Shown here: one piece after another, positions 7,001-64,000 of the stretch | How the letters are laid out: each line of letters starts with the position of its first letter | Numbering within the stretch: the stretch's first letter is position 1 | Source of the DNA: Nemertoderma westbladi | Taxonomy: Eukaryota > Animalia > Xenacoelomorpha | Direction: 5' to 3' | DNA length: 64,000 nucleotides | Assembly: GCA_032718475.1 (NCBI GenBank) | Contig: JAUCBJ010008708.1 | Location: 62,001 to 126,000 of the forward strand | Made by a program: the position numbers and the translations under genes | Notes under the pieces: model-generated | Seen by the model: the letters and a program-made list of their open reading frames with translations, nothing else | Told to the model about the DNA's origin: nothing | Database searches by the model: none

Positions 7001-7113
7001 GGGGCAGTTGGGGTGCGGGACCGTTTGTCGGCAGCGGATGCGGGCGAAACCGAGACTTCGGCTCCGCAGTCGACCAGGTAGGTCTGGCCGGTGCGACGGT
7101 CCCACACAGTCAT
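4060..7113 (-). CDS. pol: Gypsy Pol (protease-RT-RNase H-integrase), probably translated as Gag-Pol by -1 frameshift
   Basis: LVDCGAEVS protease; YLDD RT; DASD/TDHKPL/NVVADALSR RNase H; H..GH…C..C zinc finger, VDIVGP…DRG…VER core and GPY integrase motifs. No stops in 1017 aa. Confidence 0.95.
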   Translation of the reverse strand: MTVWDRRTGQTYLVDCGAEVSVSPASAADKRSRTPTAPLVAANGSPIATWGKRAICLHLGNGRVFTQEFYVANVSSPILGADFFFSNRLAIDLAGRRLIDMSNPTAIPTKIACYSTAIAGIRIPTTGPCERLIDEFPELLIPRFEPTALNKHGVEHHIVTEGPPLHARARRLDAEKLAVAKAEFAKMEELGIIRRSNSPWASPLHIAPKPGGGWRPCGDYRRLNDATVDDRYPLPHIQDFNGHLDGMSVFSKIDLVRGYHQIPMATKDTPKTAIITPFGLWEFLRMPFGLKNAAQAFQRLMDGILRGIPFAFVYLDDILVASRSVAEHIDHLRQVFRLLSDNGMVLNRTKCVFGVPELTFLGHKVTSSGILPLEDRVDAIRDYPTPDSKLSLQRFLGMVNYYHRFMPRLADKLCPLYEATKSKSQTIQWTPECQTAFESAKSSLAAATLLHHPNSTATTSVTVDASDKAVGAKLEQLHGEVWRPVAFFSRKLSTAEAKYSAFDRELLAANLAIKHFRHYVEGRTFTVYTDHKPLTFALTSAAERSPRQTRHMSFIAEFTTDIRHVSGKDNVVADALSRAPVAAILSPTIDFRQLATAQQTSAEVNTYRTAITSLVIEDVPFGDFTILCDVSTGRTRPIIPKEWTRRVFDAIHGLGHSGNRPTQRAILSRFVWHGLKRDVKRWCQECHACQASKIHRHVHAPLTRRQPPDHRFDSLHVDIVGPLPVSEGMTYMFTVIDRFSRWPEVIPMADSTTETCARALLRHWISRFGIPSHVTSDRGAQFTSHLWADLHRLLGISASNTTAYHPQANGMVERLHRQLKASLMARLVGPNWMDELPMVLLNIRTAWREDSGCSPADLVYGTSLHIPGEFVAPVPRSEPPSSDFLLQLQDSMRAVAPPIPEFHGRRTTSVPDNLGSTGYVYVRRDAHRRPLQRPYSGPYRVLQKSEKYFVLDVTGRRETVSVDRLKVAYGCGVQPDKPPPETQPTPTVQTHSSPPVTPPAPLITTRSGRIINPPRYL

Positions 7114-7130
7114 TGTTGTCTTCCCGTTTT

Positions 7131-7173
7131 GGCCGGCCGCGGATATGTTTAGCGACCGGCCCCGGCGTTTCCC
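7131..7173 (-). promoter_or_regulatory. -1 programmed ribosomal frameshift signal
   Basis: In-frame slippery heptamer G GGA AAC (7173-7167), 5-nt spacer, then stem GGCCGGTCGC/GCGGCCGGCC (10 bp, one G-U) with an 11-nt loop. The -1 frame is open into pol. Confidence 0.85.
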
Positions 7174-7940
7174 GAACGAGGAGATGAGGCCGGTGTGGTG
7201 GGAATGAGGTGGCTCAGTCGACAGCCTCTGTAACCGCAGTTCCGCGCGGCATTCCCGAACTTCTTGTGGAAGAAGCAGAGAGTCGTAAAGGAGGACCCGG
7301 GAGGCTGTGTAGGCCCGGAGGCGGAGACGGCGTTCCGTTGTACCCCGGCGATACCGACTCCGACGGGTTCTCCTCGGGTCGCCTCCATAATCCGGTCGGC
7401 GTCCGTAGCGAGTTCGTCGAGGTCGGTGGAGCTCGAACCGGCCAGAACGCGCCGGACATCCGTCGGCAGCTGGGCGAGGAACAACGACCGGAAGAGTGTC
7501 TCTGGGTCCGCGTTGAGGGATCTCATGTGGCGGAGGAGACCGGTAGGTCGGCGGTCACCGAGTCCAGAAAGGGACAAAAGTTCGTTGTCTCTCTGAGCCT
7601 GGGTTTTACCAAAAGCGGCGATGAGGGCGCGCTTCAGTATTCTATACTTATTGTCTCCCGCCGGCGGATCGAGAAGTATTGGTCCAACTTCTTTGGCTGT
7701 AGTGTTATCCAACGCAGCAACCACGTGGTGAAACTTGGTTGAGTCTACAGTTATGTTGCGCGTGGCGAACTGAGCCTCGACTTGGGAGAACCAGATCTCC
7801 GGGTTCTCGGTCCAGAACGTGGGGAGTTTGACTCCGACGGCGTTTACTGAGGTTCCGGTTGTGTCGGAGCCGGAAGCAGCAGGAAGGAGGCCTTGGAGGG
7901 CCGTGGCGAGGGCCGCAATATCCTCAGCAGCGAGAGGCAT
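7149..7940 (-). CDS. gag: Gypsy Gag (263 aa)
   Basis: VKLPTFW..NPEIWFSQVEAQF N-terminal motif and C-terminal CFFH-x9-C-x4-C (CHCC), characteristic of CsRn1-like Gag. Confidence 0.92.
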   Translation of the reverse strand: MPLAAEDIAALATALQGLLPAASGSDTTGTSVNAVGVKLPTFWTENPEIWFSQVEAQFATRNITVDSTKFHHVVAALDNTTAKEVGPILLDPPAGDNKYRILKRALIAAFGKTQAQRDNELLSLSGLGDRRPTGLLRHMRSLNADPETLFRSLFLAQLPTDVRRVLAGSSSTDLDELATDADRIMEATRGEPVGVGIAGVQRNAVSASGPTQPPGSSFTTLCFFHKKFGNAARNCGYRGCRLSHLIPTTPASSPRSGNAGAGR

Positions 7941-8020
7941 ACCGGTAGTTAATATTGTAATAGGCTAATAGCTGAACATGGGGATTATTCCGCAACTGTT
8001 TGGATTAGCGAGTTCACCAT

Positions 8021-8032
8021 GCCGGGTCACCA
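8021..8032 (-). promoter_or_regulatory. Primer-binding site, tRNA-Trp-like
   Basis: TGGTGACCCGGC, 1 nt downstream of the 5' LTR; resembles the complement of the tRNA-Trp 3' end used by the CsRn1 clade. Confidence 0.75.
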
Positions 8033-8033
8033 G

Positions 8034-8206
8034 TTTAGCGTCAGGCTAAATTGTGAAGTTATAATAATAAGATTTGTTAAGAGTTGCACAAGTCAGTAAG
8101 TCTGTACTGAAGAGGTACCGGTACATAGCCTACAACCCGAATCCTCGAGTGTTGCTAGGCAACCGTGTCAACAACCCAACTCCATATCTCACCCCTGTAC
8201 GCCACA
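8034..8206 (-). repeat. 5' LTR of CsRn1-like Gypsy
   Basis: Identical to 3847-4019; followed by the PBS. Confidence 0.95.
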
Positions 8207-31063: not shown

Positions 31064-32690
31064 TAACATATGGAGTGGGCGTGTGGCTATATCATTTTAT
31101 ATTTGTTTTTATTTTATATTTATGTATGTATTATTATGTAATTTTATTATAATCGTTTTCTTTAATTTTATTTAGTAAAATGTTATTTTAGAAAATTTAG
31201 TAAATTAGTGCAATATATTAGTGTTTATTACGTACATAATTACTTAAAATATATATTTAGTGCGACGGCGAGAAATAATTATTTTCTCTTCCCTTACTGT
31301 CCGTATCATATTATAAATGCGTGACTACAGTAAGATGAAATGTCCGTACTTCTTAAAGTACAATAAAGCCACTACTATATTTAAGTATTATTGGTAGGCA
31401 GAGTATTAGGAATGCAAAGTTCAGATCCTCGTGTCTCGGCTAAACCAAGCTCTGGGTAGACCTTGGAAACGACTTGCCTCTTCACACTGACATTGCTTCG
31501 TGCGATATTGCTCTTCTACCTTATAACAAATAATACATATAGTAGCGTGATGTCCCTCTAACAGTAGCGTCAATCGCAAATAAATCTGTTAAACTTTTGA
31601 CCATCTGTAATTCTAGTCGATTAAGATATCGTGGCACCCACCGATATACTTGAAAGACAAATTCTAGAATCAGTGGTTAACGTCCCCAGACAAGTTCTGG
31701 AATAAATTGGTGCCCATCCTAAATATTAATTTAATATTTGTTAAAATCTGTAAAATCCCGATCCTTTAAAATTTCTAGTCAATTAAGATATCGCAGTATT
31801 TACCGATATTCTTAGAAGGACTATTTTATAGAATTAAGGATCCTAAGTCCCCAGATATGCTCTGGAATAAAATTTATGTCAATTTAACAATCAAATAATA
31901 AAATTCACGGGAATAAATTTAAATTCATATTCAAATGAATTTCATAAATTGTCATTTTGTACAATTTATAACATTCCCAAAATTCCAGTAATTAATAGAT
32001 CATGGGAGCGGAGATTCATATTGAGTGTACTAGAGTGTGAGAATCTCCAACATATAGTCAATAGCCGATAAAATTTATAAAATCATGCATAAAGAGGATA
32101 TTGACAATTAAAGAATTACTATTAAATAACATCCCAGATCTGTATGCCTGCGCCTGAGGATTGCCCTAATTCTACCGCTAGTTTTCCATAATGTCACCAT
32201 GGCAACACCCACGCTAGAATTAGAAACAAGTTAAAGGACCAATAAAAGCTTGCCCCATTGCGTAGCATAAGAGTATACATAGCGCACTATTAGTATCCAA
32301 GGATACATAGTAATAACGTGACATTCTGGAAGACACTGACTAACGGACAAATGGCATGCATGTGTGCAGTAAGTAATGATTGTATGGAATTTGTGCGTTT
32401 ATAGGTGAATGTTACTACTAAAGTGTGTTTACAGTAGCTAATCGCAATTGTAAAATAGCCCTAACTCTACCGAGATAACCTCAAGTGGATTCAAGCCTTT
32501 GGGACGGACAGTGGTGGGACTTGTGCCGGTTATCGTTGTCGTGCTGTTGCTACATGTTGGCGTAAACACCGCGACAATGGTACATCGGCGCTGAGAAACC
32601 CACTGTCCGGGGGCAAAGCCTAGTAGGCAGCGACGCCCGCTTGCCTAAAATATTAACTCATATTGATATTAATAAACTCAGATAGCAGAT

Positions 32691-34140
32691 ATGACGGAAT
32701 TGATAGAAGATGACCTTGGTATCAGGGAGCGATATACTCTACCTTTACAAGCGTTTGTGGATAGCTTGATACGCGGTGAAGCCGATCCGACTATTATGGA
32801 GGACGATGGTCGTTATATCGAACCGCCGATGTCCCAGGAACAACTTACGCGTGAATTGGACTATAGAAAATTCACCGCTCGCTATACGAATCGTAATGGT
32901 ACGTATATGGACTTCTTAACTACCGGCCATCCTACCGATTTACATGATACGGACGATGTATACACCGAAAGGGAAATGGTTCTATTTAAATATCATACCC
33001 AGCGGAGTCGTAACGATAAACCGAGAATAGATCACGAAAATTATATTCGTAACAGACTGGGAAGACGGACCCATATGTTTAGAATCTGAAGAGATTCAGC
33101 CCCCACGTCTCGGAGTAGCGATAGCGACTACATATGGGAATGGTATCAAGGTCCACAGTGTCTCACTGCGTACGATTATCGCCATGCCAACTATGTTTCT
33201 CGGCAACGTTATCGATTATGCGCATCGAGAGACCATGTTACGCCCATGGACACAAACGTCCGCTGTTCCTATTTCCACGAACAACCGACGATGGAAATTT
33301 ATTGCGCGTATTACAGACTCAATAACTCGCACATTTTTGCGGTTTGCCCTCAATTGATGACTCAATGTCACCATTGTCAACTAAAGGGACGCGCCAGTTT
33401 CGATTGCCCTTTTTAGTCACGATTTGGAAAGCGTAGATGAAATGATCACACTACGTTACATCAGAGCTTGGGAAGCGAACGCTGATTTACATTGTGATTC
33501 ACGCCATCGCTATTATCCTGGACGCGCTTACGAAGGAGTTTATGCGTTCCATCCTTATTTGTTTGCCTCGGTCGAGCAGAAATCGCGCCTATCGAGTTAT
33601 GAACTATTGAAGCGCGTTGGAGAATGTATTTCAACCAAATATGTACGCAAATTTCTCAGGAGCATTAATCCGAGTGACATCAATTCGTACAACTTAATAA
33701 ACTTTATCCGTCAAGATCCGGCCTATGGAGACTTATTTGTCAACTCACACCCTGAGTTACAGGAAGTATATCGACGGCCTTACGAGTACAGAGCCCGCGA
33801 ACGCGAGTTGGAAAGAACCATTAAACCAAGGAAGTTTCTAACTGCCTATGGTCCACCCACGGCCCTCGTTCAGACCACTCGTAAAGGACCCGTAAGAGCG
33901 GCTGTCTTGAAACGAGCTCTCAAAGCCGTTAGACCCCTCTCCCCGGACGTTGATGTCAATCAACCCGGTACTTCGACCGGCGGATATACCGATCGCAATC
34001 CCATACCTTCTGATGCAATCATATTGCACCCTTCACCCAGGAGTTATAGCCCTCCTCGTAAAGTGGCTCGCCCCAAAGAGAAAAGGACTCTTGCTAGCTT
34101 TAAAAAACTGCGTAAACGCCGTCCGCGCAAGAAAGACTAA
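32691..34140 (+). pseudogene. BEL-B accessory ORF (about 482 aa reconstructed), zinc-knuckle-like with basic C-terminus
   Basis: The frame continues past the TGA at 33087 into YRLCASRDH…CAYYRLNNSHIFAVCPQLMTQCHHCQLKGRASFDCP. One extra T near 33411-33414 joins it to ORF 33424-34140, which ends KKLRKRRPRKKD. Confidence 0.7.
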
Positions 34141-45565: not shown

Positions 45566-48500
45566 TGATATGTACTGATATGTACAATATACATGGCTCG
45601 CCCCTTATAGGACTATGTACGTAAGATACCGGTACCACTAGATAGGTGGAGGGTTTTCCCTATTGCTATGCTGTACTGATATTACACTGTACTGCTGTAC
45701 AACACTTTTATATTATACGTGTCTGCCTTATATACTATTGATATTCATATTATTGGGGATATTCCGATAGTGCAGACATACCATGGCGCTGCGAGTAGTT
45801 AAACTCACAACACGCATTTAGCATTTAAAGTGTAGCCAAAAGCAACCGCCTGAACGCCAACCCAAAAATGTCACTACCAACTGAGGATGACACCCTCAAC
45901 CTCGATACTTCATCCGTCGACAAACTCGATAGGAATACGCTAAAAGCTCATCTCACCAACGCTGAGATCACGTTTAGCGATAAAACTTCGACAGTTGCTC
46001 TGAAACAGAAACTGCGGAAATTCCTAGTGGAGGGCGACATAGAAGAAGAGGTGGTAGAATCAGTTGCAGGAGCAGCACACGGAATAGATGTAGCAGCTCT
46101 GCTTCACCAGCAACAGCAGCTGATTAACGACCAACGCGAACAGCAAATACGGATGTTCACTCAACTGCAAGGGTTGCAAATACAACAGGAGGAACAACAC
46201 GCCCGGTTTATGGAAACCCTCAGTGCTGGCGACACTTCTCGCCAACGCGACCGGAACATCGATACTGTCGCTCCACGCATCAACGAACGTGAAACAACTA
46301 AACTCACGGTACGCGCACCAAACCTATTGGAGGACGACGTCGACTTCAAGGAGTTTAAAAGGTGGGAGGCCACTTGGCGAAATTATTCCCGGGTCACGAA
46401 ACTCAATAATAAAATCAGAGAGGATCAACTAGCAACCTTCTTCTCATACTGCAGTCCGGATTTTTTGAACCGATTGCAGTACGCCATTAGTATCCCGCAG
46501 GATACCACATCGTCAATGGAGGAAATCCTTACGATCATACGAAATCACCTGCGAGCCCAACAAAATATAACGGTGGACCGTTATAAACTCGTCCGTAAAC
46601 GTCAGGATGATAAAGAATCCTTTGACGACTTCTATATTAGTTTGTGCGAGATGGCGGATGACGCGATTCTCGAGAGCATGGCAAAGGATGATTGGTTATC
46701 AACTCTCATAATTTGCGGTATAGAAGACGACGAAACTCGGTTGGAGTTGCTCGCAAAGAAACCTACGCTAACACGCGAAGAAATCGTAGATTTTTGCCGC
46801 AATAAAGAACTGGCTATGAAAGACGACCAACGACTAAAGCAAAACGTCGGCGCGGTTTATCCAAAATCCCGCCCCCATAGTCGCGGTCGCCCTCGCCAGA
46901 AAAAATCTGCTGATCCTAAGGAGAAACAACCTCGCCGCAACTCCCAACTTCCTCCCAATGTTTGCTACAAATGTGGCGGTACCTGGCCCCAGAACAGCAG
47001 CAAACCGTGTGCCGCCAAGGGTAAAACATGCTCCAACTGCAATCGTATTGGCCACCTAGCCGACGTGTGTCGTAATCCAAAAGAGAAACAGACGCCGAAA
47101 CGAACTGGAGCAATAATCCTGGCTGCATTCAAGGAGGCGGCCTACACATCGAGGCCCCTTATATCCATAGACTTCCATGATACTCAGGGCGAATACATAG
47201 CGACTAAAGCCTGCATAGCAGATACAGGGGCTCAGGTTACAGTTGCCGGAATACAACTGTTAAAACGGTTCGGTATAACGAGGGATAAACTCCAACCAAC
47301 GGAAGTAAACCACCAGAGTGCAGATGGTTCATCCATACATTGTCTCGGGTCCATAGACTTTATTCTTTGTGCGAAACCATCCTCTGACTCTCATACCGAA
47401 ACCATATACATTTGTGATAAAATGAAGAGAGATGTCTTCCTCTCCCTAGCAGCTTGTAAGGGACTACACATTGTACATGACATGTTCCCCGCCCCCTTCC
47501 CAAATCAATACAGAGTTGGTGCTGTGAAGGAAGTCCTACCGACGACGGATATAAAACTCGCAGAGAAAACGGAAAAAAAACTCATAGAAGAATTTTCCGA
47601 CGTTTTCGCTATCCCTTCAGAGTTGAGGACGATGAACGGCCCACCGATGAAAATCGAACTGAGGGAGAACGCAACCCCGTTTTGCATCTACGCTGCTCGG
47701 AATATTCCGCTCGCCTACAGAGAAAAGGCGCGCCTTGAAATCGAGGATATGCTTACAAAAGGAATAATCGAACGTGTCGGGTATCGAGCTGTTCCTTGGT
47801 GTCATCCGATTGTCGTATGCCCGAAACCCGGCAACCCAGAGGAAATTCGGATGACCGTCGACTTGACGAAACTCAATAACCAAGTGAAACGGACAATTCA
47901 TAACGCGCGTACGCCATCCGATATTATGATGGACCGCACACCAAACGCTCGCTGGTTCACCAAACTCGACGCCAAATCGGGTTATTGGCAGGTGGAGCTG
48001 GCTGAGGAGTCGCGCGACCTTACCACGTTCCTAACGCCTTGAGGGCGCTACCGATACGCCAGGGCCCCTATGGGATTCATTTCCACTGGAGACTCGTATA
48101 ACTACCGTGGCGACCTAGCTCTGGACGGTATACCTAACGTTAAGAAACTCGTGGATGATATACTCATAGAGGATGAATCCCTAGAAGAACACATCGATCG
48201 CGTCCGCACAATATTGGAGCGTTGTCGCACCCACGGAATAACTCTGAACCGCAAAAAGTTTCAGTTCGCCAAACAACGCATCCAATTCGCTGGTTTTATA
48301 CTTTCCAGCACCGGAGTAGAGGCCAATCCGGATAAAATCCGCGCAATCGTTGACTTTCCTACTCCCACGAATATAACAGAGTTGAGAAGCTTCATGGGTC
48401 TCACCAACCAGCTGGGATGTTTCTCCTCAGCCGTGAGCTCAGCCGCAATTCCTCTGCGTGAATTATTGCGCACTAGAAATAGTTTCACCTGGACAACCAT

Positions 48501-50150
48501 GCAGGATAATGCATTTAAAGAGGTTAAACTCGCGTTAACGAGTCCCCCTGTCTTAGCCCCATTCGAACTCCAGGCCGAAACACGCCTTGAAACAGATGCC
48601 AGTTGGTTACAAGGTCTGGGTTTTAATTTAATGCAAAAACAACAAAATGAATGGAAATTAATCATATGTGGTAGTCGATTTTTAACGAGTGTGGAAAGTC
48701 GATATGCAACTATAGAACTCGAAACCATTGCAATAAAGTTTGGTTTGGAGAAATGCCGCATATATCTGGCTGGCATTGAACCTTTTAAAGTAATTATTGA
48801 CCAAGCCCACTCGTTTCTATTTTTAACAAACATACACTGGGTCAAGTTGAGAATAACAAAATACAGCGTATAAAAGCTGAGTTGCAGTCAAATTATCTAT
48901 TTGATGTAGAATGGCGGCAAGGTGAGAAAAATCGCATTGCCAACGGTTTAAGCCGTGCCCCAGTTGATAATCCAGAGGATGTAATCGAGGATGAGATGGA
49001 TAACACCTCAACTTTGGCTGCAATTTCCTCTGCATTACAATCCCATCAAAATAGTATGCAAAATACTACATTACAGTGTGGCTCGCCCCATATCCCTTCT
49101 ACTGATGACCCTGTCATAGAAGAGATCTGGGCTGCAGCATTAGTGGACCCTGACTACCAATCCCTTTTGTGTGAAATTCTTCAGGGACCTACAAATAAAA
49201 ATACTGTGTCCAGCCTGACACAACAGTGTAAATCTATTATCCACGAAATGTCCGTCGAAAATGGACTGGTTTTATTTGGTGTACAATTAGTCATCCCGAA
49301 ATCAAAACGAAACCTCGTTCTAAAACGTTTACACGCCCCACATCAGGGTATAGTACGTACCAAACAACGACGGCCGATCTCCCAACGAGATTGTGTTCGG
49401 TCACAATCTACGGTCACGAGTGCCAGCTCACCATACTACTTACGATCCTAAATGGCGCGATGCTGCTGAAGAAGCAGACAACAAACACAGCATTATTCGT
49501 AAGAAGGCGATAGACCACTATAATAGCACTGCACGAAACCTAAAACCATTGCCCGTTGATACCAAAGTGCGCCTACAAAATGCCCGCACCAGAACTTGGG
49601 ACCGCACCGGAATTATAACCAGCCGGCAAGGAGCGCGTGACTATTGGATAAAACTCCCATCTGGGCGCGCAATGCGGAGAAACCGACGTTTCATACGACA
49701 ATTCAATGAGCCGCTAGAACTTGGAAACGACTTGCAAACCGGTGACTTCGAAACTGAAAGTAAATCTGATACAAACGTTGAAACTGAAGCAAGTAATAAC
49801 CACTCAGAAGAAACTGAAAGCAATTTACTACGCCACAGTACACGCTCACGTAAACCCATTGTGCGATTCGATGAACGGGTTTACGAAACAAGATTTTAAA
49901 TTGAAAAACATTAAAAATCTAAAAGGGGGAGTTGATATGTACTGATATGTACAATATACATGGCTCGCCCCTTATAGGACTATGTACTTAAGATACCGGT
50001 ACCACTAGATAGGTGGAGGGTTTTCCCTATTGCTATGCTGTACTGATATTACACTGTACTGCTGTACTACACTTTTATATTATACGTGTCTGCCTTATAT
50101 ACTATTGATATTCATATTATTGGGGATATTCCGATAGTGCAGACATACCA
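45566..50150 (+). mobile_element. Ty3/Gypsy element, Mag-like, defective
   Basis: 218-bp LTRs at 45566-45783 and 49933-50150 (2 mismatches noticed); 5-bp TSD CACAA; PBS TGGCGCTGCGAG (tRNA-Ser-like) at 45784-45795; PPT AAAAGGGGGAG at 49921-49931. Confidence 0.95.
45868..49899 (+). pseudogene. Mag-like gag-pol: single ORF broken by TGA at 48040, a frameshift near 48810 and an integrase-core deletion near 49370
   Basis: Two CCHC-type knuckles; ADTGAQVT; LDAKSGYWQ; LVDD; TDAS; LHAPHQGIVRTKQR joined directly to DGRSPNEIVFG…RRNRRFIR. Confidence 0.9.
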
Positions 50151-53557: not shown

Positions 53558-54218
53558 ACGAGAGTACCTAAGGGTTTTATGTGTACAAATATGAATAGGC
53601 ATATTACATTACTGTAACTTAATCAAAATACGTCGGATTTTCAAAAGTTTTTACGTTAAAGTTAAACTACAAATGCTATCTTATAGTGAAATAATTCATC
53701 ACCGCTCCATGAAAACAGTAAGTAAGACTGTTTTCACCAATCAAAATATAAAATATCTACAAACTATTTCTAAATTTACTGGTAGGGCCTAAAATATAAA
53801 ATATAATCACTATCTAATCATTGCATACTTAATATTGCAGATACGGCGTAAATACAATCGATCGTACATACAAATACAAATTTACGAATTAACTTTAGTG
53901 CCTAAAATACAAAAAAAGGCTTTCGGTTATCAAGGTAAGCAAATTAAACAAATCAGAACAAATAAATCAAACAAATCAAACAAATAAATCAAACTCTTTC
54001 GATAAATCTTTATATATTGTAAATATACATAATAAACCTTCACCAAATTAAATTAGTCCAAATATAATATAAACACAATGCGCTAATAACTTCCAATAGT
54101 GTCCTCCTGACGATCTGAAAAGTTCGTCCTACTGGTCTGGATGTCTTCTCCTGAGCATCAATTGCTAACGGTAGGCTCGCAAGCCTTCCTTTCCATCTCG
54201 CTCCTCCAAATCCAACAT

Positions 54219-54759
54219 TCATACATAATATCCGAATATAAATATCCAATATAACATCCAAATATAATATCTGAATATAATATCCTTTCTTCTCGCTTTC
54301 CTATTCCTTGGCCGACCGGGCTCGTCCACGTCCTCTATTGCGATTGGGTGGTGGTCGAGGTCGAACTGGGCTCGGACTTCGGCGTCGAGTTGTCGGTGGT
54401 TCCAAAACGCTAGGAAAGGGGACGACGGGAGATGAAACGACCCCCTTCTTGGTAACGCAGACTTTGGTGGTTTGGGCAACGCGCTAATATCGGCTCAGGG
54501 TTCTCGCAAACGTCGTTGGCGTCGCATAACGCATCGTAGGTGTACAACGCTTTGAACTCCGCGCGTAACTCCTCCGCTGTTTTGTTATAAGCGTCCAATC
54601 GCTGTCGCGTGATGTTTGGATCCGCCTTGGATTTAGCAAGCTTGGCTGTACTCCTAGCCATACTCTCCACTCCAAACAGGTTAAAGTTTTGGCCCCATAT
54701 CGGTTGAACGGCGCCTGGTGCTACTATTCCTGCGTGGATCCTTGATAATAGTGTTTCTA
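54219..54759 (-). CDS. BEL-C accessory ORF exon (predicted spliced; possible frameshift near 54450)
   Basis: GC-rich coding-like island (ORFs 54410-54772 and 54219-54479) preceded by a CTAAC branch point, pyrimidine tract and AG at 54761-54760. Confidence 0.55.
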
Positions 54760-55451
54760 CTAGAGGAAGCACAAACAGAGGTTAGATGTGAGGAGACTTA
54801 GAGTTTGTCGGCTTTTGGCTCAACTCTGCTCTAAACCCCAACCCATTTTGCCTAATGACTTCGGGTTCGCGTGATTTCGCACTGGCCCCTAATCCAAAAA
54901 ATTGTGCCGATAAAAAACGAATTCCGGGTAAACTAGCCGCGAGTCTAAAATACTCACCTTTTAATTTCCCAAACTACATTTCCCAAGAAAATAATGCAGT
55001 CGAGAATTAATTGGTCAAAATAATAGTAGACACGACTACGTAGAACAAGACCGATTTTCTTTTCCAGAAAAAATTTTATCGGTAGGCTCGCAAGCCTTCC
55101 ATCCGCTCTTGTCCTCCCCAATTTTAATTTTATCTAGCTGTATTCTAGAATTTGCTTTCACTGGAGAATCGTTTTTCTTAAATTTAAATCCAACTAAATG
55201 GATTTGTCTAATAATTTTTGAAAATTGTCTCACTTGTGGGTTCCAAGTGGAATTCCATTCCTACTGTACACACAATCCCGCTCCTATGTGATACATAAGG
55301 GTACTACCCTCCATGTTCACGTATAAAGACAATGGAATTCCACCGCTGTCTCTATCTACAGTGAAGAGGATTACAAATGCACGTACAGTAATACAAATAC
55401 AAATAACTAAAATACAGTAGGTCTATGTGGCGGCCAACAAAGGTCCCACAT

Positions 55452-55907
55452 CTATTTACTAATATTGGGTGGAGATTTGTAGTCTCCCGTCTCGTTTCTA
55501 GTCTCCTCAAGGAGTACGAGACGTTGTACAGGCCTATCTACGGTACGTCCGTCGATAGTCCGTACAGTAACTGTTCTCACTATACCAGATGTAGGGTGCG
55601 TGGTCAAAATGACTCCAGTCAGCCAAAACCGTATTTTCAGATTAGCTTCAGCCAATAAAACATGGTCACCACGTCTTAAACATCGGGTATTTAGATACCA
55701 GGAAGTTCTGGTTGAAATAGAGGGCAAATAATTTTTCTGCCATATTTCCCAGAATTTATTTGCAAGCAATTGAGTGATTTTCCAAGCCTTGTTGCCGTAT
55801 CCGTCACTATCAACGGGTACCGAAATGGGCAACAGTGTCGTCGGCGCCTGCATAAGCAGGTGCGCTGGTGTCAAGGCAAACTGTACGTCGTTATTGTCTG
55901 GGATCAT
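55452..55907 (-). pseudogene. BEL-C integrase C-terminal domain
   Basis: ALTPAHLL, FWEIWQKNYL, GDHVLL, W..G.I, GIVRTVTVRT, RPVQRLVLLE. Confidence 0.9.
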
Positions 55908-55913
55908 GGTGTT

Positions 55914-58900
55914 TCATGGTAATTCATGGTGTTGCGGTATGATGATAGGATACCTAAAGTCAAGTGCAAAGTCGATGTTTTGGAGTCTGGACTTGTGACA
56001 AAGTAAGCCCCGGTAAATAATCGAACTCCAACTCAAAATCGGTGAAGACTTAATCTGTTTACCTTGTTTGATCGCTGTGAACTCTCGTGCGAAATATCGC
56101 AATTGATAATGTCGAATGATATCAACTTCACAGTGTTCAATTTCCTTTAAGGTAAGTCTTCTAGGAAAGTCGCGTTTGCCTCTGGCATATTGTCTCAATC
56201 GTTTGAGCCATGCTAACTTGCGGCACGCGTCAGTCCATGATCTAGTTAGGTTCACTATCCTGTCAACGTAAGTGTTGGTGACGTCATCGGGTAAGGTGTA
56301 GTCGTAGTGTGGATACTTGTCTGGACTTGGTAGGCCCACGGGCCTTCCGGTAGGTTTGTCTGAGTCCCCAAGTACGTCAATCTCTACGGTCTTACCTTTA
56401 CCGTCCGCACCTAATATGTCGACTGGCAGTAATGGTTTCAACTCTACAGTGTCAGTGTGTTCCTGTGAGCCTGTAAGCTTCCTAACCTTAGTCACCACTT
56501 TACCTGTAGGTAAGTCAAGTACCTTCTTCGAGCGGAGTGTAATCCCTGTGGCCACATCTCTGTCGTCCAAAGAAGTCAAATTCGGTAAGTCTCTAAATGT
56601 CCGCTCCAATGGGTCTTCTAATGGAGTGTCTAGTAGACAGTCTGGTGAAGCGTCTGGTGAACAGTCTGGTGAGACGTCTGGTGAGACATAGCGCGGAACA
56701 TCCGGCGAAATGTCCTGTCGTCGGTCCCAAAGTCTGTCTAGCGTAACTTCTATCAGAAAGTCTGGTTCAAAGTCTGGTGAACAGTCGGTCGAGATGTCTG
56801 GTGAACAGTCTGGTGAGACGTCCGGTAGACATTCTGTCGAGAGTTCCATCAAACAATCTGGCGAACAATCCGGAGAACAATCTGGTGTCTCTTCTGGTGA
56901 ATAGTCTGGCGAGTAATCTGGTGAACAATCCGGCGAAACGTCTGGTGAAATCTCCCGCGGAACATCCGGCGAAGGATTCGTACAAGCGTCTGGTCGAGTG
57001 TCTGGCGAGACGTCTGGCGTAATGTCAGGTCTGGCGTCCAGGTCATCAGATTTCGTCCGTCCTTTTTTCCTTTTGACCTTGGCGTTGGCTTTCCATTTAG
57101 ACTTGACAACCTTGTCGAGTTTTATCTCGGCACCCTCTGGTATGGTGTTGGTTGTCGCGTCGAATAACGGTGGCCATTCGTCTGATGGTCGCTGTAGGAA
57201 ATCGGGTCCTCTAAACCAAAAGGATTTATTGTCCGGTTTACAAAAGTCAAGTGGTTGCATCCCCCGTGACGCGATGTCAGCTGGGTTCAGCTTCCCTGGA
57301 CAGTGACGCCAATCTTGTTTGAGCGACCGGTCTAGTATTTCAGCCCGTCTGTTGGCTACGAAAGTCTTGAACTCGAATGTTTCGTTGTTTATGTACCAAA
57401 GTACCAACGTCGCATCCATCCAATATGTGACCTTCAAGTTAGCCTCCAGCTCGCGTTGAACTAGACTGACAATATCGGTAGATATCGTCCCGGCTTGCAG
57501 CTCCCCACGAGGTACAGTCATATACTTCAATGGCATTGTTCTAGCCCTTGAAGTAACGAGAGATACATCGTAGCTGTCCGATGTCACTTGTCGTCTAAGG
57601 TATAAGGTAACCCCCAATCCATCCTTGCTAGCGTCACTAAAGCTGTGAAGCTCTAAATCGGCAGGAAAGGTGGTTTGTAAAGGAAAGTATACCCTCGGTA
57701 TGGTATAGTCTTGTAGGAACGTCAGTTGGGCTTCCCAGTCCCTCCATCGCTCAGCTAACTTTTCTGGGATGGGATCGTCCCATTCCAGTCCGGCTTGCCA
57801 AATGCTGCGGAGTATGATCCTAGCATGTAGGATCACTGGACTAATGAAACACAATGGGTCATACAATCGACTCATAGTCGATAAGCAAGTCCTCTTAGTG
57901 AGAGGTCTAGTCTGGTCGTTGGACCTTACACGTACCCTAAAATTGTCGGTGTTAGGGTCCCAACTAAGTCCTAATACTTTGGTCGTCGGCAGTGGTTCTA
58001 GGTCTAAGTCTAAATCACCTCCGCTACGATCCATCGGGTCAAATGAGTTCACCAGTTCGGGTTCGTTGGAAGCGAACTTCGTCAGGTGAAATCCGCCCTC
58101 AGCGAGACAATCCTGGAGTTGGTGTGCTACGGTTGTAGCGCGCTCCAAGGTGTCACAACTCTTGAGGCCGTCATCCACGTAGAAATCTCGTTCCACGGTC
58201 CGAACTACTTCTGGGTCAAATTGGTCTCGTCTGTCTAATGCTGTCTGCTTCAAGGCGTACATGGTGCAGTTGGGGCTGTCCCTGGCTCCGAATACTCTTA
58301 CCTGCATTTGGTAAGTTTCTGGCGGAAGTTGTAAGTTTCCGTCCGGATACCAAAGAAACCTCAAACTTTCCCTGTTCCGCTCCAAAGCCTTAACCTGGTG
58401 AAACATGGCCTCTACGTCACAGGTGAAAGCCACTTTGCGTTGTCTAAAACGCATTAGGACTCCCATGAGGTAATTATTCATATTCGGCCCGTCCATCAGT
58501 TCGCTATTCATAGACATCCCTTGGTAAAGCGCAGCGCAGTCGTTGACTACACGCACCTTGCCAGGTTTGTCCGGGTGTCGAACATAATGATGTGGCAGGT
58601 AATATGTCTGGTCTGTAGTTACCTCAGGATTTAACATCCTAATGGCGTATCCCTTTTGGAGATACGTCTGAAGTTGTGCATTGTATTGCATATGGGCCGT
58701 CTCGTCTCGCAACAATCGCTGCCTTATTGATTTGAGTCGCCTCAAAGCAAGCGGGTAATTGTTAACGAGCTTAGGTTGTCCATTGCGCCACAACATACCA
58801 ACCTCATAGTGGCCATTCGCGGTCTGGCGAATGGTATCTCTCATAATATTTAATGACCGTTTTTCCTGTTCTGACATAGCGGTCTCGTAACTACCGGGTT

Positions 58901-61900
58901 CTGCTGAGTCCTGTTCCAACCATTGTATGGTCCGTTCAGTCAGCAGTCGGTCAAGCGCTGCTTGCACTGCGCCATGGTCCTCGTCCACGTCTTCGTCCGC
59001 TGCGGTGGCTAGTGTCAAGGTGTCTGGTAGGCTCGCAAGCCTTCCGGTGTCACTAGTCGGCGTCGAATTGTCGTGCGGCGGTTTGACAACCTCTTGATCT
59101 ATCGGTAGGCTCGCAAGCCTTCCAAGATCAACGACCGGTGTCGAAGCCTGGTGGGTGGGGTCAATGACCTTCGGATTTTTCGGTAGGCTCGCAAGCCTTC
59201 CAAAATCCTCGTTCATCGAGTCATCCACGGCAACAACCCTCAGGTCTTCGGTAGTCAATACAACCTGGTCTACTGCAAGTAGTTGTAAGTCAGAGGTCCG
59301 TATGGTCGTGTCCAGATCGGTTACGTCAGTATCGGTGGCGTCTGCGTTAGTGACGCAAGTCTGTCGTAGTGCCGTCCGTACAATTGGACCACGGGAGTGT
59401 GAAGGAGAATTATCTATCGTGTTAGTCAATAAACTACACGTGCTCAAAACGTCGTCCTCCTGGTCACTTACCTCTAGTGAACGTATTGGTGCTCTAGTAT
59501 ACCAACCTATGGGAGTTCTACATGCGTAGGGGTTGCCCGCTGTAATAACAGATGGGCGTGTCTCCCATACCTGATGTAAGTTAAACTGGTCTGTCCCAAT
59601 TAACATCGCAATGGAACGATAATTGACAGGACATTCCGGTATTCCAAGGTGTCGAAAATACTTACGATCTTCCGGAGATTGCTCTGGCACAGGGCCGAGC
59701 AAGTTACTAAAGTCCTTCGTAGCTGCAAAGGTCAAATTTCTTACCGGAAGTAATGAGCGCTCCTCCTTGCTGTGTTCCGTTTTGGAAAGAAGAGTGTCTA
59801 AAGTTAGTTTTACTCTCGTCACAGGAATCGCTCTCTTACCATGCATGCTGCTTACAGTATACTGAGCAGTCTTACCTTGACTCAAGTCCGTAACTACGTC
59901 GGCTACTTGTTCGTCGACATAGCTATGCGATGACGCAGAGTCTAAGATGGCGTATATACGCTTGCTCCCTCGGGTTCCGGTAATCTTTATAGGAATCACG
60001 CTAAACCCTTTCAATTGGTTCTGTGTGAGGAGCGTTATCGAAGGCTGTTCCTCACCTGCATGCACGTAGAAAGTGTCGTCTTCCTCCTCGTCCTCGTCCG
60101 ATGATCCTGACTGATCCATACAGTCGGTATAAAAGGTACGGATCTCGCGCGGCGCACGCTCCTTATAAAGCGCGTCGCATCTAGCCGCTTTATCGGGATG
60201 CTCTCGTCGAAAGCGTCTGGTCGGAGTATGACTGGTTGTGTGAAGCAACGCGTCATGGTTACGTCCACACAGAGAACATGTATCATCGCTCGGGCAATCC
60301 TTCCGGACGTGTCCTGGCTTCATACATCTCCAACAGGAATCTAGAGATCGGATTTGGAGTCTCCTTTCCTCGATCCCTAACTCTTTAAAAGCGCGACATC
60401 CACGTAGTTTATGTCCGCTATGGTTTCTGCCGTTCCGCTCGCAGTATGAGCATCCCACAAAGTCCGCCGGCAACTGTTGTCGTGGCTGCGTGGTGCCGAT
60501 AGGCGTCAGAACTTTAGAAGTCTCAGTAGGGGTGGCGTAAGTAACGGCTTTCGCGTTCGTCGGAAACGGTTTAGTCCGATTCGGCGCAGAAACAGTTATC
60601 CCTTCCGCCGCGATATGGTGATCGGTATAGTTCGATCGAGTCTCGATCACGGCCTCCCGTGAAATAAGTTGATAGACATCGGTGAGTTTTAATAACCCTC
60701 CGGCCTCTTCGCGTTGGTACTCGATGCGTCGCCATTCTCGTCGTAGTCGATGATGAAGTCGACCGATTATTCGAATGAGAACCGTCGGTGCGTTAGCGTA
60801 CTCGAGTTGTCCAATGGACCGTAAAGTCCCTATAGCGTTCTTTATTTCGTCCGCGAGTCGTAAAAGGTCGATCGGTCTCGAAATGTTGCCTCCTCTGCAG
60901 AGGTCTTCAATGATGGATTTAGCCATGGCGACATTACCGCCGTAAATCGAATACAAACGGTCGTACGCCAATTCAAAGGCATCGGGAACACCAATAAAGG
61001 TTTCCGCTAATCGTTTCGGCTCACCAGACAGAACTTGGAGCAAGTAATTAAACTTCTCCGTCGAGGTGAAAGCACACTTAGCGATCTGGGACTCTACGTA
61101 GTCTACCAGTGTGCGCCAGTGTTTCGCGTTGCCAGAGAATTTCGGCAGTTGCTGTGCCGGTAATCCGTGTCTAGCCGCGAATTTCGCAATCTCGTTAACT
61201 AAGTCCAACTGTCCGCGTCCCTGTTCGGTGGCGTCGTCCAGTCGCTTCCTTCCGCGCGTTGTTCGTCGGTAGGAATTATTAACGGGATCTTCTTCTCGAT
61301 GTGTCGGAGTCCGTCTAGTCTCCTGTTCTCTCCTCGGTGGTCGATGTTGTCTAGGTTGTTCCAACTCCACGCTGGTTCGTGATCGATCCGACGGTTGCGC
61401 TTCGAGTCGCTCTTCGAGTTGAGCTAGTCGGTCCGTTACAGGTCGCATTATTTCGGCGAGTCTGTTGGTGCTGATCGCTTCCGCAGGTTGCAACGTGGGT
61501 TTCTGTTGGGGTGTTTCTCGTGGAGGATTATCAATATAGGGGTTCGTCGATCGTTCCTCCCGTTTGTAATCCGCTGCCGCTGCCGCTCCAGTACGGAATA
61601 TTTCCCGTTCCGTCGACTCCGAGTCACTGGATGAATCGCTGTCGTCCGGATAAGGTGGTTGGCGGGTTCGCGTCCGGCGTATTATTCTTGGTCGAGTTCG
61701 TCGTGGTCTGGGATCTACGGCTCCTCGTTGTTCGGTAGGCTCGCAAGCCTTCCACGAAGTCGTAGGTCTCGTTAAACATTGGGTGAGAGGTCTAGTAAAA
61801 ACATCTGAGTTAAGTTCTACTGTAGGTTTATAAATGACTGGGTTCGCGCAGCACGTCACAGGTTTAACTTGCAATGGTTTACTCACCTGTTTTACTGTCA

Positions 61901-63560
61901 TAAACGCAGGTTCGTCTCTCTCCACAAGTAAACTACGACTTACTGTAGGTGGACTAGTTATGTTACCTGCTAAAATTGGCGATGAAGTCGCCCTAGGTTG
62001 CGGTATTTCCGTCACAACAAACCTGCTACCTTGCGTCGGACGCACAGGCGTTATTTCCTTAGGTTTCGTAACGAAGACCGGTTTTATCGGAGTCGTGGGT
62101 TTGAGCATAGGAATAACTTGGGGAAAACGTTTACAGTAATCCTCGACGAACTCCTCTCCTCGATCTATCGCTCCCACGCTTCCTTCCTCGATCCGCTTCT
62201 GTATTCCGCGATATCGAGCTTCCATACGATCCAGGGCAGACAAGTCGTGTCCAGTTCGCGATCTTATAGATCTATCTCTCGCGTCGAGTTCGAGGTCCGC
62301 TTGCGCGTTCGCTGTCTCGCGCGATCTACGATTCAATTCGAACTGTAGTTGCATCTCCCTTTCGCGTCGATCTGCGTCCTGTTGTTGTGCCGCTAATTCC
62401 GCTTCCTGTATAGCTAATCGAGCGTTTATTTGCCGCGCCTCCAACTTGGCATGAGCGTCGGATGCTGCTTTCTTCCGTGCTAACTCGTCAGCTGCCGCCT
62501 GTCGTGCTAACTCGTCGGCTGCTGCCGCCGCGGCCGCTTCTCGCGCTAAGTCCTCCTCCAGTCTCCGCATCTCTGATGCTTCGAACTCAGCCTGTGCTTG
62601 AAGTTTCGCAAGTTTCGCTACGTCCTCTCTGCGCTGTTTTTCTCCTTCGATGGCGATCTGTGCCATCTGTAGTTGCGCTTCTTCCTCGGCGACTTGTTGT
62701 CGGCGTGCAACCTCCTGTTGTTGTCGAGTAATTCCAGACGCTGTTCTACTAACGTCGCCAACGTTGCCAACGTCGCTCCGTACGCTAACGAACGATCTAT
62801 CCAGTGGTGGATGTTGGTAGGCTCGCGAGCCTTCCGTAGTGAGAACTTCCGTCGTCCCTCGCGGTTCGACTTCCGGTTCGTCGATCGGTACGCCGCATCT
62901 ACGAAGAAAATTGGTCAGCGTTTCCAACCTTCCGTCCAGGCAGTAGAGTTCTTCTTCCTCTTCTGGTTGTAACAACGCGTCCGAAACTGACTCACCTAGC
63001 AGTTGGTCGAACTGCTCCTGTTGAGCCAATCTTATCACCGACTTAAACTGGATAAGGCTTTCTCTCGCACTTACCAATTTATCTACTATCTTTACCTGAG
63101 TAAAGTTGTCGCCACGCAACTCTGCAAGTTCGTGCAAACCTTTAAGTTTATCTACGGAGGCATGTACCCTACTTTCTATCCTTACCTGTAAGGTGTAGAA
63201 CTCGTATCTCGACATCGGGGCGGTTAACTCACGTAAAACGCGAAAACCTTCTCCGAGGTTCCGAGTAATCTGGGCCATGTGTCCTCCTATACTTCTAATA
63301 ACGTTCTCCTGGCTTCCAGTCGAACTTACCATGTCCGGTTCCCGCGATCTAGTCTGCGGGACGGTAAGGAAATCTTCGATCCTGCCGTCGCCACGCGTTG
63401 CGGCTTCCGGTATTTCCGTTCGGGGTACCGGCGACGCAAGCGGTGTGACATCGGTGGAATCTCGGGTTCTCCTTCTCGGTTCGTCTACTGTCGATCTGTC
63501 CAGGTCGCACGAGTCATAGTCGGTAGATGGGTATCTCGTCGAATGGGGTGTGTCACTCAT
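55914..63560 (-). CDS. BEL-C Gag-PR-RT-RNase H polyprotein (2548 aa) lacking the integrase core
   Basis: LPKFSGN…KFNYLLQVLSGEP; three knuckles; ILDSASSHSYV; YYLPHH…KVRVVND; FYVDDG; YDPL; FSDAS; NPADIASRG. Ends after YPIIIP. Confidence 0.93.
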   Translation of the reverse strand: MSDTPHSTRYPSTDYDSCDLDRSTVDEPRRRTRDSTDVTPLASPVPRTEIPEAATRGDGRIEDFLTVPQTRSREPDMVSSTGSQENVIRSIGGHMAQITRNLGEGFRVLRELTAPMSRYEFYTLQVRIESRVHASVDKLKGLHELAELRGDNFTQVKIVDKLVSARESLIQFKSVIRLAQQEQFDQLLGESVSDALLQPEEEEELYCLDGRLETLTNFLRRCGVPIDEPEVEPRGTTEVLTTEGSRAYQHPPLDRSFVSVRSDVGNVGDVSRTASGITRQQQEVARRQQVAEEEAQLQMAQIAIEGEKQRREDVAKLAKLQAQAEFEASEMRRLEEDLAREAAAAAAADELARQAAADELARKKAASDAHAKLEARQINARLAIQEAELAAQQQDADRREREMQLQFELNRRSRETANAQADLELDARDRSIRSRTGHDLSALDRMEARYRGIQKRIEEGSVGAIDRGEEFVEDYCKRFPQVIPMLKPTTPIKPVFVTKPKEITPVRPTQGSRFVVTEIPQPRATSSPILAGNITSPPTVSRSLLVERDEPAFMTVKQVSKPLQVKPVTCCANPVIYKPTVELNSDVFTRPLTQCLTRPTTSWKACEPTEQRGAVDPRPRRTRPRIIRRTRTRQPPYPDDSDSSSDSESTEREIFRTGAAAAADYKREERSTNPYIDNPPRETPQQKPTLQPAEAISTNRLAEIMRPVTDRLAQLEERLEAQPSDRSRTSVELEQPRQHRPPRREQETRRTPTHREEDPVNNSYRRTTRGRKRLDDATEQGRGQLDLVNEIAKFAARHGLPAQQLPKFSGNAKHWRTLVDYVESQIAKCAFTSTEKFNYLLQVLSGEPKRLAETFIGVPDAFELAYDRLYSIYGGNVAMAKSIIEDLCRGGNISRPIDLLRLADEIKNAIGTLRSIGQLEYANAPTVLIRIIGRLHHRLRREWRRIEYQREEAGGLLKLTDVYQLISREAVIETRSNYTDHHIAAEGITVSAPNRTKPFPTNAKAVTYATPTETSKVLTPIGTTQPRQQLPADFVGCSYCERNGRNHSGHKLRGCRAFKELGIEERRLQIRSLDSCWRCMKPGHVRKDCPSDDTCSLCGRNHDALLHTTSHTPTRRFRREHPDKAARCDALYKERAPREIRTFYTDCMDQSGSSDEDEEEDDTFYVHAGEEQPSITLLTQNQLKGFSVIPIKITGTRGSKRIYAILDSASSHSYVDEQVADVVTDLSQGKTAQYTVSSMHGKRAIPVTRVKLTLDTLLSKTEHSKEERSLLPVRNLTFAATKDFSNLLGPVPEQSPEDRKYFRHLGIPECPVNYRSIAMLIGTDQFNLHQVWETRPSVITAGNPYACRTPIGWYTRAPIRSLEVSDQEDDVLSTCSLLTNTIDNSPSHSRGPIVRTALRQTCVTNADATDTDVTDLDTTIRTSDLQLLAVDQVVLTTEDLRVVAVDDSMNEDFGRLASLPKNPKVIDPTHQASTPVVDLGRLASLPIDQEVVKPPHDNSTPTSDTGRLASLPDTLTLATAADEDVDEDHGAVQAALDRLLTERTIQWLEQDSAEPGSYETAMSEQEKRSLNIMRDTIRQTANGHYEVGMLWRNGQPKLVNNYPLALRRLKSIRQRLLRDETAHMQYNAQLQTYLQKGYAIRMLNPEVTTDQTYYLPHHYVRHPDKPGKVRVVNDCAALYQGMSMNSELMDGPNMNNYLMGVLMRFRQRKVAFTCDVEAMFHQVKALERNRESLRFLWYPDGNLQLPPETYQMQVRVFGARDSPNCTMYALKQTALDRRDQFDPEVVRTVERDFYVDDGLKSCDTLERATTVAHQLQDCLAEGGFHLTKFASNEPELVNSFDPMDRSGGDLDLDLEPLPTTKVLGLSWDPNTDNFRVRVRSNDQTRPLTKRTCLSTMSRLYDPLCFISPVILHARIILRSIWQAGLEWDDPIPEKLAERWRDWEAQLTFLQDYTIPRVYFPLQTTFPADLELHSFSDASKDGLGVTLYLRRQVTSDSYDVSLVTSRARTMPLKYMTVPRGELQAGTISTDIVSLVQRELEANLKVTYWMDATLVLWYINNETFEFKTFVANRRAEILDRSLKQDWRHCPGKLNPADIASRGMQPLDFCKPDNKSFWFRGPDFLQRPSDEWPPLFDATTNTIPEGAEIKLDKVVKSKWKANAKVKRKKGRTKSDDLDARPDITPDVSPDTRPDACTNPSPDVPREISPDVSPDCSPDYSPDYSPEETPDCSPDCSPDCLMELSTECLPDVSPDCSPDISTDCSPDFEPDFLIEVTLDRLWDRRQDISPDVPRYVSPDVSPDCSPDASPDCLLDTPLEDPLERTFRDLPNLTSLDDRDVATGITLRSKKVLDLPTGKVVTKVRKLTGSQEHTDTVELKPLLPVDILGADGKGKTVEIDVLGDSDKPTGRPVGLPSPDKYPHYDYTLPDDVTNTYVDRIVNLTRSWTDACRKLAWLKRLRQYARGKRDFPRRLTLKEIEHCEVDIIRHYQLRYFAREFTAIKQGKQIKSSPILSWSSIIYRGLLCHKSRLQNIDFALDFRYPIIIPQHHELP
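56635..57030 (-). repeat. 12-bp in-frame tandem repeats encoding [S/T]PD[C/V/Y/I]
   Basis: TCTGG[T/C]GA[A/G]NNN units on the plus strand; protein …SPDVSPDCSPDYSPDYSPE…. Confidence 0.9.
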
Positions 63561-64000
63561 GTCTTATTATATACGTCGAGTACGGGTAATAAAATGTCAG
63601 TGTCTGAATGTTGAAGTGTCAAACTTACCTTGGTATATATAGTACATATATACCCTAACCGGTACAAATAAATCAACAAGTCAGAATGTCGAAATGTCAA
63701 AATGTCGAAATGTACAAATGTCAAACTTACCTTGATATATATATATATCATATATATACCCTAACCGGTACAAATAAAACTAACAAGGTATATAATAAAA
63801 TAAGTAGTAATCTAGCCTACCGGCTAAATTTGTACGAATAAGTGAGATAACGGTATACGTTAACAAAATATAGATCAACAAGTAAACAATAGGCCAAACA
63901 GCAACGTCTAACGGGAAAATAAGTACCAACAACACTACTAATAGACAGTGAAACCCACAAATTTTGAGTACTACTGTGCTTTCTTAAGTTTGAACGACGC

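What the first reader, a model, noticed from the sequence alone, without database searches (positions are those of the whole stretch)
54219..63647. Predicted subgenomic splice that skips gag-pol and creates an accessory protein
Seen on the minus strand: ATG at 63647 followed by a 19-nt exon ending CAAG|GTAAGT (donor at 63628), 68 nt upstream of the gag ATG. An acceptor CTAAC…pyrimidine tract…CTAG ends at 54760. Joining gives MYYIYQ-VETLLSRIHAG… exactly in frame with ORF 54410-54772; an overlapping frame ends in basic RPRNRKARRK. A duplicated donor lies at about 63730. Six of the seven hairpins fall in the intron and one in the 3' UTR. Inference: retrovirus-like spliced/unspliced regulation with a small non-env protein unrelated to the BEL-B accessory ORF.
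Basis: partly seen in the sequence, partly recalled or inferred. Interest (0 to 1): 0.7.

Follow-up and report, generated by a model that had tools for sequence, protein, structure and literature searches.

The report
Spliced Rev-like gene in BEL retrotransposon
A retrovirus-like jumping gene in animal DNA carries strong splice signals, a small extra reading frame of no known family and eight copies of one hairpin, which together likely make a spliced messenger for a small protein predicted to help the unspliced genome RNA leave the nucleus, though no spliced RNA has been seen.

Summary
The sequence facts hold. In a BEL/Pao LTR retrotransposon (minus strand) the donor at 63628, its duplicate at 63730 and the acceptor at 54760 exist, and the join is in frame (122 aa). 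The donors rank at the top of 676 GT sites, and the acceptor sits 21 nt into a 123-codon frame with gag-pol-like codon use. The picture needs three corrections. (1) The frame's 'stop' at 54410 is itself the best acceptor of 699 downstream of the donor. Codon use switches frame there, and a diverged relative aligns only 54503-54608. A second intron of about 98 nt is therefore likely, making the 'overlapping basic frame' a third exon with an export-signal-like motif and an Arg/Lys patch (about 153 aa, Rev/CERV-like). No good donor for it was found. (2) There are eight hairpins, one with a compensatory pair; their share inside the intron is what length predicts. (3) The in-frame leader is weak evidence, and a conserved donor at 54957 offers another route. 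No homologue was found, and splicing could not be tested on RNA. The design is known from ZAM/Beagle env and Cer1 CERV; a non-env version in BEL/Pao was not found in nine literature searches.

The parts
63629..63647 (-). Coding part of leader exon (ATG + 19 nt); in unspliced RNA a 16-codon uORF ending at 63597
63623..63628 (-). 5' splice donor AG|GTAAGT, joint top score of 676 GT sites
63725..63751 (-). Duplicate ATG (63751) and donor (63730) in a ~95-nt leader duplication, different phase
55914..63560 (-). gag-pol ORF (DUF1759 gag, CCHC knuckle, Pao peptidase A17); ends before an integrase core
55452..55913 (-). Integrase C-terminal piece (DUF5641); no integrase core domain between it and gag-pol in this copy
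55274..55356 (-). Non-coding block kept in a diverged relative; starts at a moderate acceptor-like AG (55356); overlaps a folded stem region
54913..54962 (-). Second non-coding block kept in a relative, holding a strong donor AG|GTGAGT at 54957
54760..54785 (-). Branch point, pyrimidine tract and 3' acceptor (AG ends at 54760; tandem in-frame AG at 54757)
54410..54759 (-). Accessory ORF; coding-like from 54760 to about 54508; internal in-frame ATG at 54661
54410..54507 (-). Inferred second intron (98 nt): top-ranked acceptor at 54410, only a weak non-canonical GC donor candidate at 54507
   Evidence: inference
54219..54409 (-). Inferred third exon: export-signal-like motif, 7 K/R in 10 residues, then a 20-residue aromatic tail coded by short AT-rich repeats
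54170..62835 (-). Eight 20-nt hairpins at 62816, 61734, 59182, 59104, 59026, 56329, 55081 and 54170 (low ends); 7 pairs, one A.A mismatch, 4-nt loop
51515..52954 (-). Probable 3' LTR (TGT...ACA) after a purine tract at 52964-52955; TATA-like site near 52238, ATTAAA near 51972
   Evidence: inferred, because the 5' LTR lies outside the window

Best explanation
This BEL/Pao retrotransposon carries strong splice signals and an extra coding frame that likely give, besides the unspliced gag-pol genome RNA, a twice-spliced messenger for a protein of about 153 residues, predicted to work like retroviral Rev or Cer1 CERV by binding the eight hairpins and helping the unspliced RNA leave the nucleus. Steps: (a) shown: donor, acceptors, frames and hairpins exist; (b) inferred, about 0.6: the leader donor is spliced to 54760; (c) inferred, about 0.55 if (b) holds: a second intron ending at 54410, or a frameshift in this copy with the same effect, links the ORF to the frame with the export-signal-like and Arg/Lys motifs; (d) inferred, about even odds if (c) holds: the product binds the hairpins and mediates export.
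For: Donors are joint top of 676 GT sites; the acceptors at 54410 and 54760 rank 1 and 2 of 699 AG sites between 63627 and 54000. At my threshold of 6.4, none of that strength lies in the 8.1-kb gag-pol sense strand and two lie in the 1.35-kb 3' region (9 in 1000 shuffles; Poisson P=0.07 against the rest of the window). The codon model trained on the element's own gag-pol favours frame 0 for 54760-54662 (+3.2 vs -0.3, -4.8) and 54661-54508 (+6.7 vs -8.8, -10.2), disfavours it for 54507-54410 (-1.7), and favours frame 2 for 54409-54283 (+5.0 vs -3.8, -2.0); it picks the true frame in 51 of 60 42-codon gag-pol windows, leave-in. One contig of run X1 aligns to 54503-54608 at about 86% and its other 92 letters do not fit; of the 8 listed differences out of 15, 5 are third-position and 4 silent in frame 0, against 1 and 0 silent in the other minus frames. 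The 42 residues after 54410 hold an export-signal-like pattern and 7 K/R in 10; of 60 gag-pol windows 5 have the first, 1 the second, none both (patterns recalled, test made after the fact). The hairpin is a nucleotide-level element: 8 sites, three reading frames inside gag-pol, one compensatory pair, none in the other 51.5 kb of the window. Copies in X1 show purifying selection on gag-pol (18 of the 24 differences tested are silent), so the family was functional recently. Precedent: PMC10309623 and bioRxiv 2023.08.03.551782.
Against: No good donor for the second intron: the best phase-compatible candidate near the boundary is a GC site scoring -0.9. The silent-change excess in the relative is not significant (P=0.13; third positions P=0.06) and rests on one contig at depth 2.85. 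No homologue in any protein search, so conservation beyond this family is not shown. The in-frame leader is one of two duplicates and both ATGs have a weak context. Hairpins are not enriched in the intron, and one copy would remain in the spliced RNA, unlike a Rev response element. The single compensatory pair is reached by 64 of 500 shuffles. The predicted product would end in a hydrophobic helix (mean hydropathy 1.23 over 19 residues), which a nuclear shuttling protein does not need. A third frame (54483-54301) also ends in an Arg-rich stretch, so basic tails come cheaply in this GC-rich stretch.
Confidence: 0.33

Rival explanations
1. One reading: one splice only, giving a 122-residue soluble helical protein ending at 54410; the basic frame is incidental.
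For: The join is in frame with no internal stop; the first intron has strong signals; no convincing donor for a second intron.
Against: The last 32 codons score against frame 0; the relative's alignment ends at 54503; the stop codon has a full pyrimidine tract and is the top acceptor.
Confidence: 0.2
2. The accessory mRNA uses the nearby donor at 54957 (197-nt intron), from an internal promoter or through an extra non-coding exon, and translation starts at the ATG at 54661; the leader peptide plays no part.
For: The 54957 donor scores 7.5, fourth of 676, and lies in a non-coding block kept in a relative; the ATG at 54661 has a purine at -3 and G at +4; the relative's match lies wholly downstream of it.
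Against: The 33 codons between the acceptor and 54661 are open and score as coding (+3.2); an out-of-frame ATG at 54698 comes first; no promoter evidence.
Confidence: 0.15
3. The twice-spliced product is a tail-anchored membrane protein that, like sORF2/FAST proteins of Drosophila MDG1 elements, helps particles pass between cells; the hairpins are then packaging signals bound by Gag.
For: A basic patch directly next to a 20-residue hydrophobic helix; the ORF sits where env would sit.
Against: In sORF2/FAST proteins the basic patch follows the membrane segment and the transcripts are unspliced; here it precedes it, hydropathy is marginal, and the tail is coded by short AT-rich repeats.
Confidence: 0.12
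4. Chance signals or the decayed remnant of a former gene: nothing is spliced and no protein is made.
For: The ORF length is only modestly unusual (49 of 1000 shuffles); six perfect AGGTRAGT donors lie on the element's sense strand, three inside gag-pol; no homologue; low-confidence fold (pLDDT 44.7); this copy is itself defective in integrase.
Against: The joint placement of top-ranked donor, branch point and acceptor at the ORF start, the codon scores, and sequence kept in a diverged relative while a nearby spacer (55350-55453) was replaced.
Confidence: 0.2

Closest known systems
Cer1 CERV of C. elegans (PMC10309623: abstract, sections 6 and 15, passages; PMC3315495: passages)
   Same: LTR retrotransposon with a single gag-pol ORF and a non-env 3' ORF expressed from a multiply spliced mRNA; candidate nuclear localisation and export signals; shown there to be needed for export of unspliced RNA.
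   Different: Cer1 is Ty3/Gypsy; CERV is 517 aa and shares exons with Gag. Here the product would be about 153 aa with a leader peptide upstream of gag. No CERV-like hit appeared in the protein searches, and I made no direct comparison.
env splicing of Drosophila errantiviruses, ZAM and Beagle subclades (bioRxiv 2023.08.03.551782, passages)
   Same: [quoted passage not shown]
   Different: Those are Ty3/Gypsy elements, and the product is a large F-type envelope; here it is a small non-env ORF in BEL/Pao.
Rev/RRE of HIV-1 and similar retroviral export proteins (Rev as described in PMC10309623 section 15; the rest recalled)
   Same: Multiply spliced mRNA; small protein with an Arg-rich patch and an export signal; structured RNA target.
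   Different: The target here would be eight dispersed 20-nt hairpins, one outside the intron; the export-like motif precedes the basic patch; no sequence similarity found; nothing tested.
env-bearing BEL/Pao elements roo, Cer13, Atlas (PMC3118150, PMC9094657, passages)
   Same: Same family; extra coding capacity 3' of integrase.
   Different: Their extra gene is a large fusion glycoprotein; this one is under 160 aa and has no Pfam match.
sORF2 of MDG1-group elements (bioRxiv 2025.03.14.642691, passages)
   Same: Small non-env accessory protein with a hydrophobic segment and a basic patch.
   Different: Unspliced, different position, opposite order of hydrophobic and basic parts.

Membership tests
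BEL/Pao (Belpaoviridae) | Family-specific domains: DUF1759 gag, Pao peptidase A17, DUF5641 | tested here: met
   (E 4e-9, 3e-39, 1e-19); all 120 listed relatives of the RT/RNase H region carry PF05380, best identity 45%
BEL/Pao (Belpaoviridae) | Integrase core at the end of pol | tested here: not met
   No integrase core hit in this copy; X1 contigs continue with other letters near 55906-55919, so this looks like a defect of the copy
BEL/Pao (Belpaoviridae) | Two LTRs TG...CA, purine tract, primer site, target duplication | tested here: inconclusive
   Purine tract and TGT...ACA candidate at 52954-51515; the 5' LTR is outside the window and no genome is held
env gene (roo, Atlas, errantivirus type) | Large glycoprotein with signal peptide and fusion domain | tested here: not met
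   116-153 aa, no Pfam family, no hydrophobic segment in frame 0
ZAM/Beagle-type leader splice | Short peptide exon and donor upstream of gag, in phase with the 3' ORF | tested here: met
   (sequence only)
ZAM/Beagle-type leader splice | Spliced RNA demonstrated | not testable with these tools
   No run on record as RNA holds the element
Rev/CERV-type export proteins | Arg/Lys-rich motif and export-signal pattern in one protein | tested here: inconclusive
   Both lie in the frame after 54410; that they belong to the product depends on the inferred second intron
Rev/CERV-type export proteins | Binding to a cis RNA element and export of unspliced RNA | not testable with these tools
   needs bench work
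Rev/CERV-type export proteins | Sequence or fold homology | tested here: not met
   No hits; model too weak for a fold search
sORF2/FAST | Membrane segment followed within 15 residues by 3 or more K/R | tested here: not met
   The basic patch precedes the hydrophobic tail, which ends the frame (criterion)

The most novel reading that the evidence does not exclude
A BEL/Pao retrotransposon has independently evolved a Rev-like switch: a twice-spliced, small non-env protein with export and RNA-binding motifs that acts on eight dispersed copies of a 20-nt hairpin to control export of its unspliced genome.
Probability: 0.2. Interest if true: 0.75.

Novelty: new variant of a known kind. Interest (0 to 1): 0.48.

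Why it matters
How LTR retrotransposons get intron-containing genome RNA out of the nucleus has been worked out for few elements; CERV of Cer1 is the invertebrate case my searches turned up. A BEL/Pao element with a small spliced regulator and a 20-nt repeated target would extend complex-retrovirus-style control to a third lineage and offer an unusually compact protein-RNA pair to test. If only the splice holds, it adds one more accessory gene to a family usually described as gag-pol with an occasional env.

Tried and rejected
RNA evidence: no RNA holder listed; the single run X1 holds a quarter of the words and its RNA label is a guess. Laid twice it gave flat low depth, no joint at the predicted junctions and no cover of the leader exon or most of the ORF; this counts neither way. 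No whole genome is held. The hairpin pattern gave 0 hits in viral contigs and 37 single hits in metagenome contigs, none with similarity to pol and only one with a short 33-nt match around the motif: chance. Related-locus scans: viral contigs gave nothing; genome contigs gave 3 loci, one a distant BEL/Pao (L038, 35%) without the ORF or the hairpin, two weak. Protein searches with the ORF: 0 of 8 and 0 of 266 candidates scored; the two hits among 1.84 billion representatives are sums of repeat matches of at most 6.6 bits each; ESM Atlas gave no usable hit twice; no Pfam or Rfam match. Single-sequence models: pLDDT 44.7 for the ORF, so no fold search was run; 69.5 for the 3' frame, driven by one helix. 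Rejected: hairpins-in-intron as evidence; kinship with the BEL-B ORFs; a matching splice layout in BEL-B, where no listed top acceptor lies at the start of its extra ORFs. Literature: nine searches found no spliced non-env BEL/Pao gene. Bowen and McDonald 1999 and Ganko 2001 were not held; I recall that they predict splicing and accessory ORFs for BEL-type Cer elements, which would lower novelty. I read no supplements; the element sequences supplied with PMC3118150 could bear on conservation.
Full report
What the element is. The minus strand from beyond 64000 down to about 51515 is a BEL/Pao LTR retrotransposon. A 2548-codon gag-pol frame (63560-55914) carries DUF1759, a CCHC knuckle and Pao peptidase A17, and a separate piece (55913-55452) carries DUF5641. 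No integrase core lies between them, so this copy is defective there. The closest database relatives of the RT/RNase H region are about 45% identical; the named ones are from animals, the best from cnidarians. A purine tract followed by TGT at 52954 and an ACA end at 51515 mark a probable 1.44-kb 3' LTR; the 5' LTR is outside the window and no genome is held. Contigs of run X1 differ from gag-pol mostly at silent sites (18 of the 24 differences I tested, from those listed), so the family has been under selection recently.

The observation. With approximate splice matrices recalled from general knowledge, the two leader donors tie for first of 676 GT sites and the 54760 acceptor ranks second of 699 AG sites between the donor and 54000. 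It has a CTAAC branch point, a combination found 4 times in the other 113 kb of strands scanned. The frame is longer than in all but 49 of 1000 shuffles. Two supporting arguments are weak. The leader ATG sits in a duplicated TA-repeat whose other copy is out of phase. The hairpins number eight, and 7 of 8 in an intron that makes up about 74% of the visible transcript is expected (P=0.33).

Is the ORF coding? A codon model trained on the element's own gag-pol favours frame 0 from 54760 to 54508. One X1 contig from a diverged relative aligns to 54503-54608 with 15 differences; of the 8 that were listed, 5 are third-position and 4 silent in frame 0, better than in the other minus-strand frames but not significant (P=0.13). 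It is a single contig at depth 2.85. No homologue was found by Pfam, two word-seeded searches, a full HMMER scan of 1.84 billion proteins (two repeat artefacts) or the ESM Atlas. I rate the ORF as probably real, lineage-specific and unproven.

A probable second intron. The TAG read as the ORF's stop at 54410 follows a full pyrimidine tract and is the top-ranked acceptor downstream of the donor. The 32 codons before it score against frame 0, and the 42 codons after it score for frame 2. The relative's alignment ends at 54503, with 92 letters that do not fit. A phase-1 intron of 98 nt from 54507 to 54410 would link the two frames into a product of 153 residues. Its last exon holds an export-signal-like pattern and 7 K/R in 10 residues, a pair seen in none of 60 gag-pol windows (patterns recalled, test made after the fact), then a 20-residue aromatic tail from short AT-rich repeats. 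The weak point is the donor: only a poor GC site fits. A frameshift in this copy somewhere in that stretch would give a similar picture.

Other signals. A strong donor at 54957 and a block from 55350 to 55274 are kept in relatives, while the spacer 55350-55453 is replaced by other letters. They allow a short intron to 54760 with translation from the ATG at 54661, or an extra non-coding exon; the second block overlaps a folded region (z about -1.8 to -2.8). The hairpin is a nucleotide-level element: eight sites, three reading frames inside gag-pol, the same fold in all eight, one compensatory pair, none elsewhere in the window, no Rfam match. It is most simply a repeated protein-binding site; whether the binder is the accessory protein or Gag is open.

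Mechanism. Most likely the unspliced RNA makes Gag-Pol and serves as genome, a spliced RNA makes the small protein, and that protein binds the hairpins and helps export the unspliced RNA. Shown: the signals and frames. Inferred: both splices, the protein and its function. I give the whole chain 0.33; a single splice 0.2; the internal-donor route 0.15; a membrane protein 0.12; chance or decay 0.2.

Comparison with what is known. [quoted passage not shown] A spliced non-env export protein is described for Cer1 (PMC10309623, abstract, sections 6 and 15, passages; PMC3315495, passages). Both are Ty3/Gypsy elements. The BEL/Pao survey PMC3118150 mentions only env as an extra gene in the passages read and has no occurrence of 'splic'. 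PMC9094657 notes overlapping ORFs in C. elegans elements (passages), citing a paper I could not read. sORF2 differs in layout (passages). PMC6431247 (passages) and PMC8579622 (abstract) added nothing. Unchecked notes of this scan report BEL/Pao elements with extra intron-containing genes and a Rev-like ORF in a gypsy LTR in other genomes; they are leads only, but they suggest such genes recur. The element is a BEL/Pao member; the product is not env and not shown to be a Rev or CERV homologue, though it may work like one.

Verdict. New variant of a known kind; interest 0.48.

Noticed in passing
window:23427-35469 (+): A second BEL/Pao element with 1251-nt LTRs 99.8% identical; it has gag but no long pol frame, and two extra ORFs (32676-33089, 33385-34140) with no Pfam match. 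The second ends in a basic tail (8 K/R in 10), a parallel to the element studied, without sequence similarity.
   Followed up: partly
window:55039-55355 (-): A 74-codon open frame (55260-55036) scores well in the codon model (+9.9) and continues a 30-codon frame across one stop codon; no Pfam match. It may be a further decayed or alternative exon.
   Followed up: partly
window:56605-57020 (-): A 12-nt tandem repeat inside pol between RNase H and integrase codes an SPD-rich acidic linker.
   Followed up: no
window:53183-53416: Two ~118-nt direct repeats (75% alike) in the 3' untranslated region before the probable LTR.
   Followed up: no
window:52537: An X1 contig leaves the window's sequence here, inside the probable LTR, with 255 other letters: an LTR variant or another insertion.
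   Followed up: no
window:3847-8208 (-) and 45566-50150 (+): Two Ty3/Gypsy-like LTR elements with short, near-identical LTRs (175 and 218 nt); the first is GC-rich and interrupts a LINE-like frame (family from reading the translations).
   Followed up: no
L038:2-8167: A BEL/Pao element, followed by a second long ORF (7067-8167), lies in a contig filed under a bacterial MAG; probably animal DNA binned with it.
   Followed up: partly
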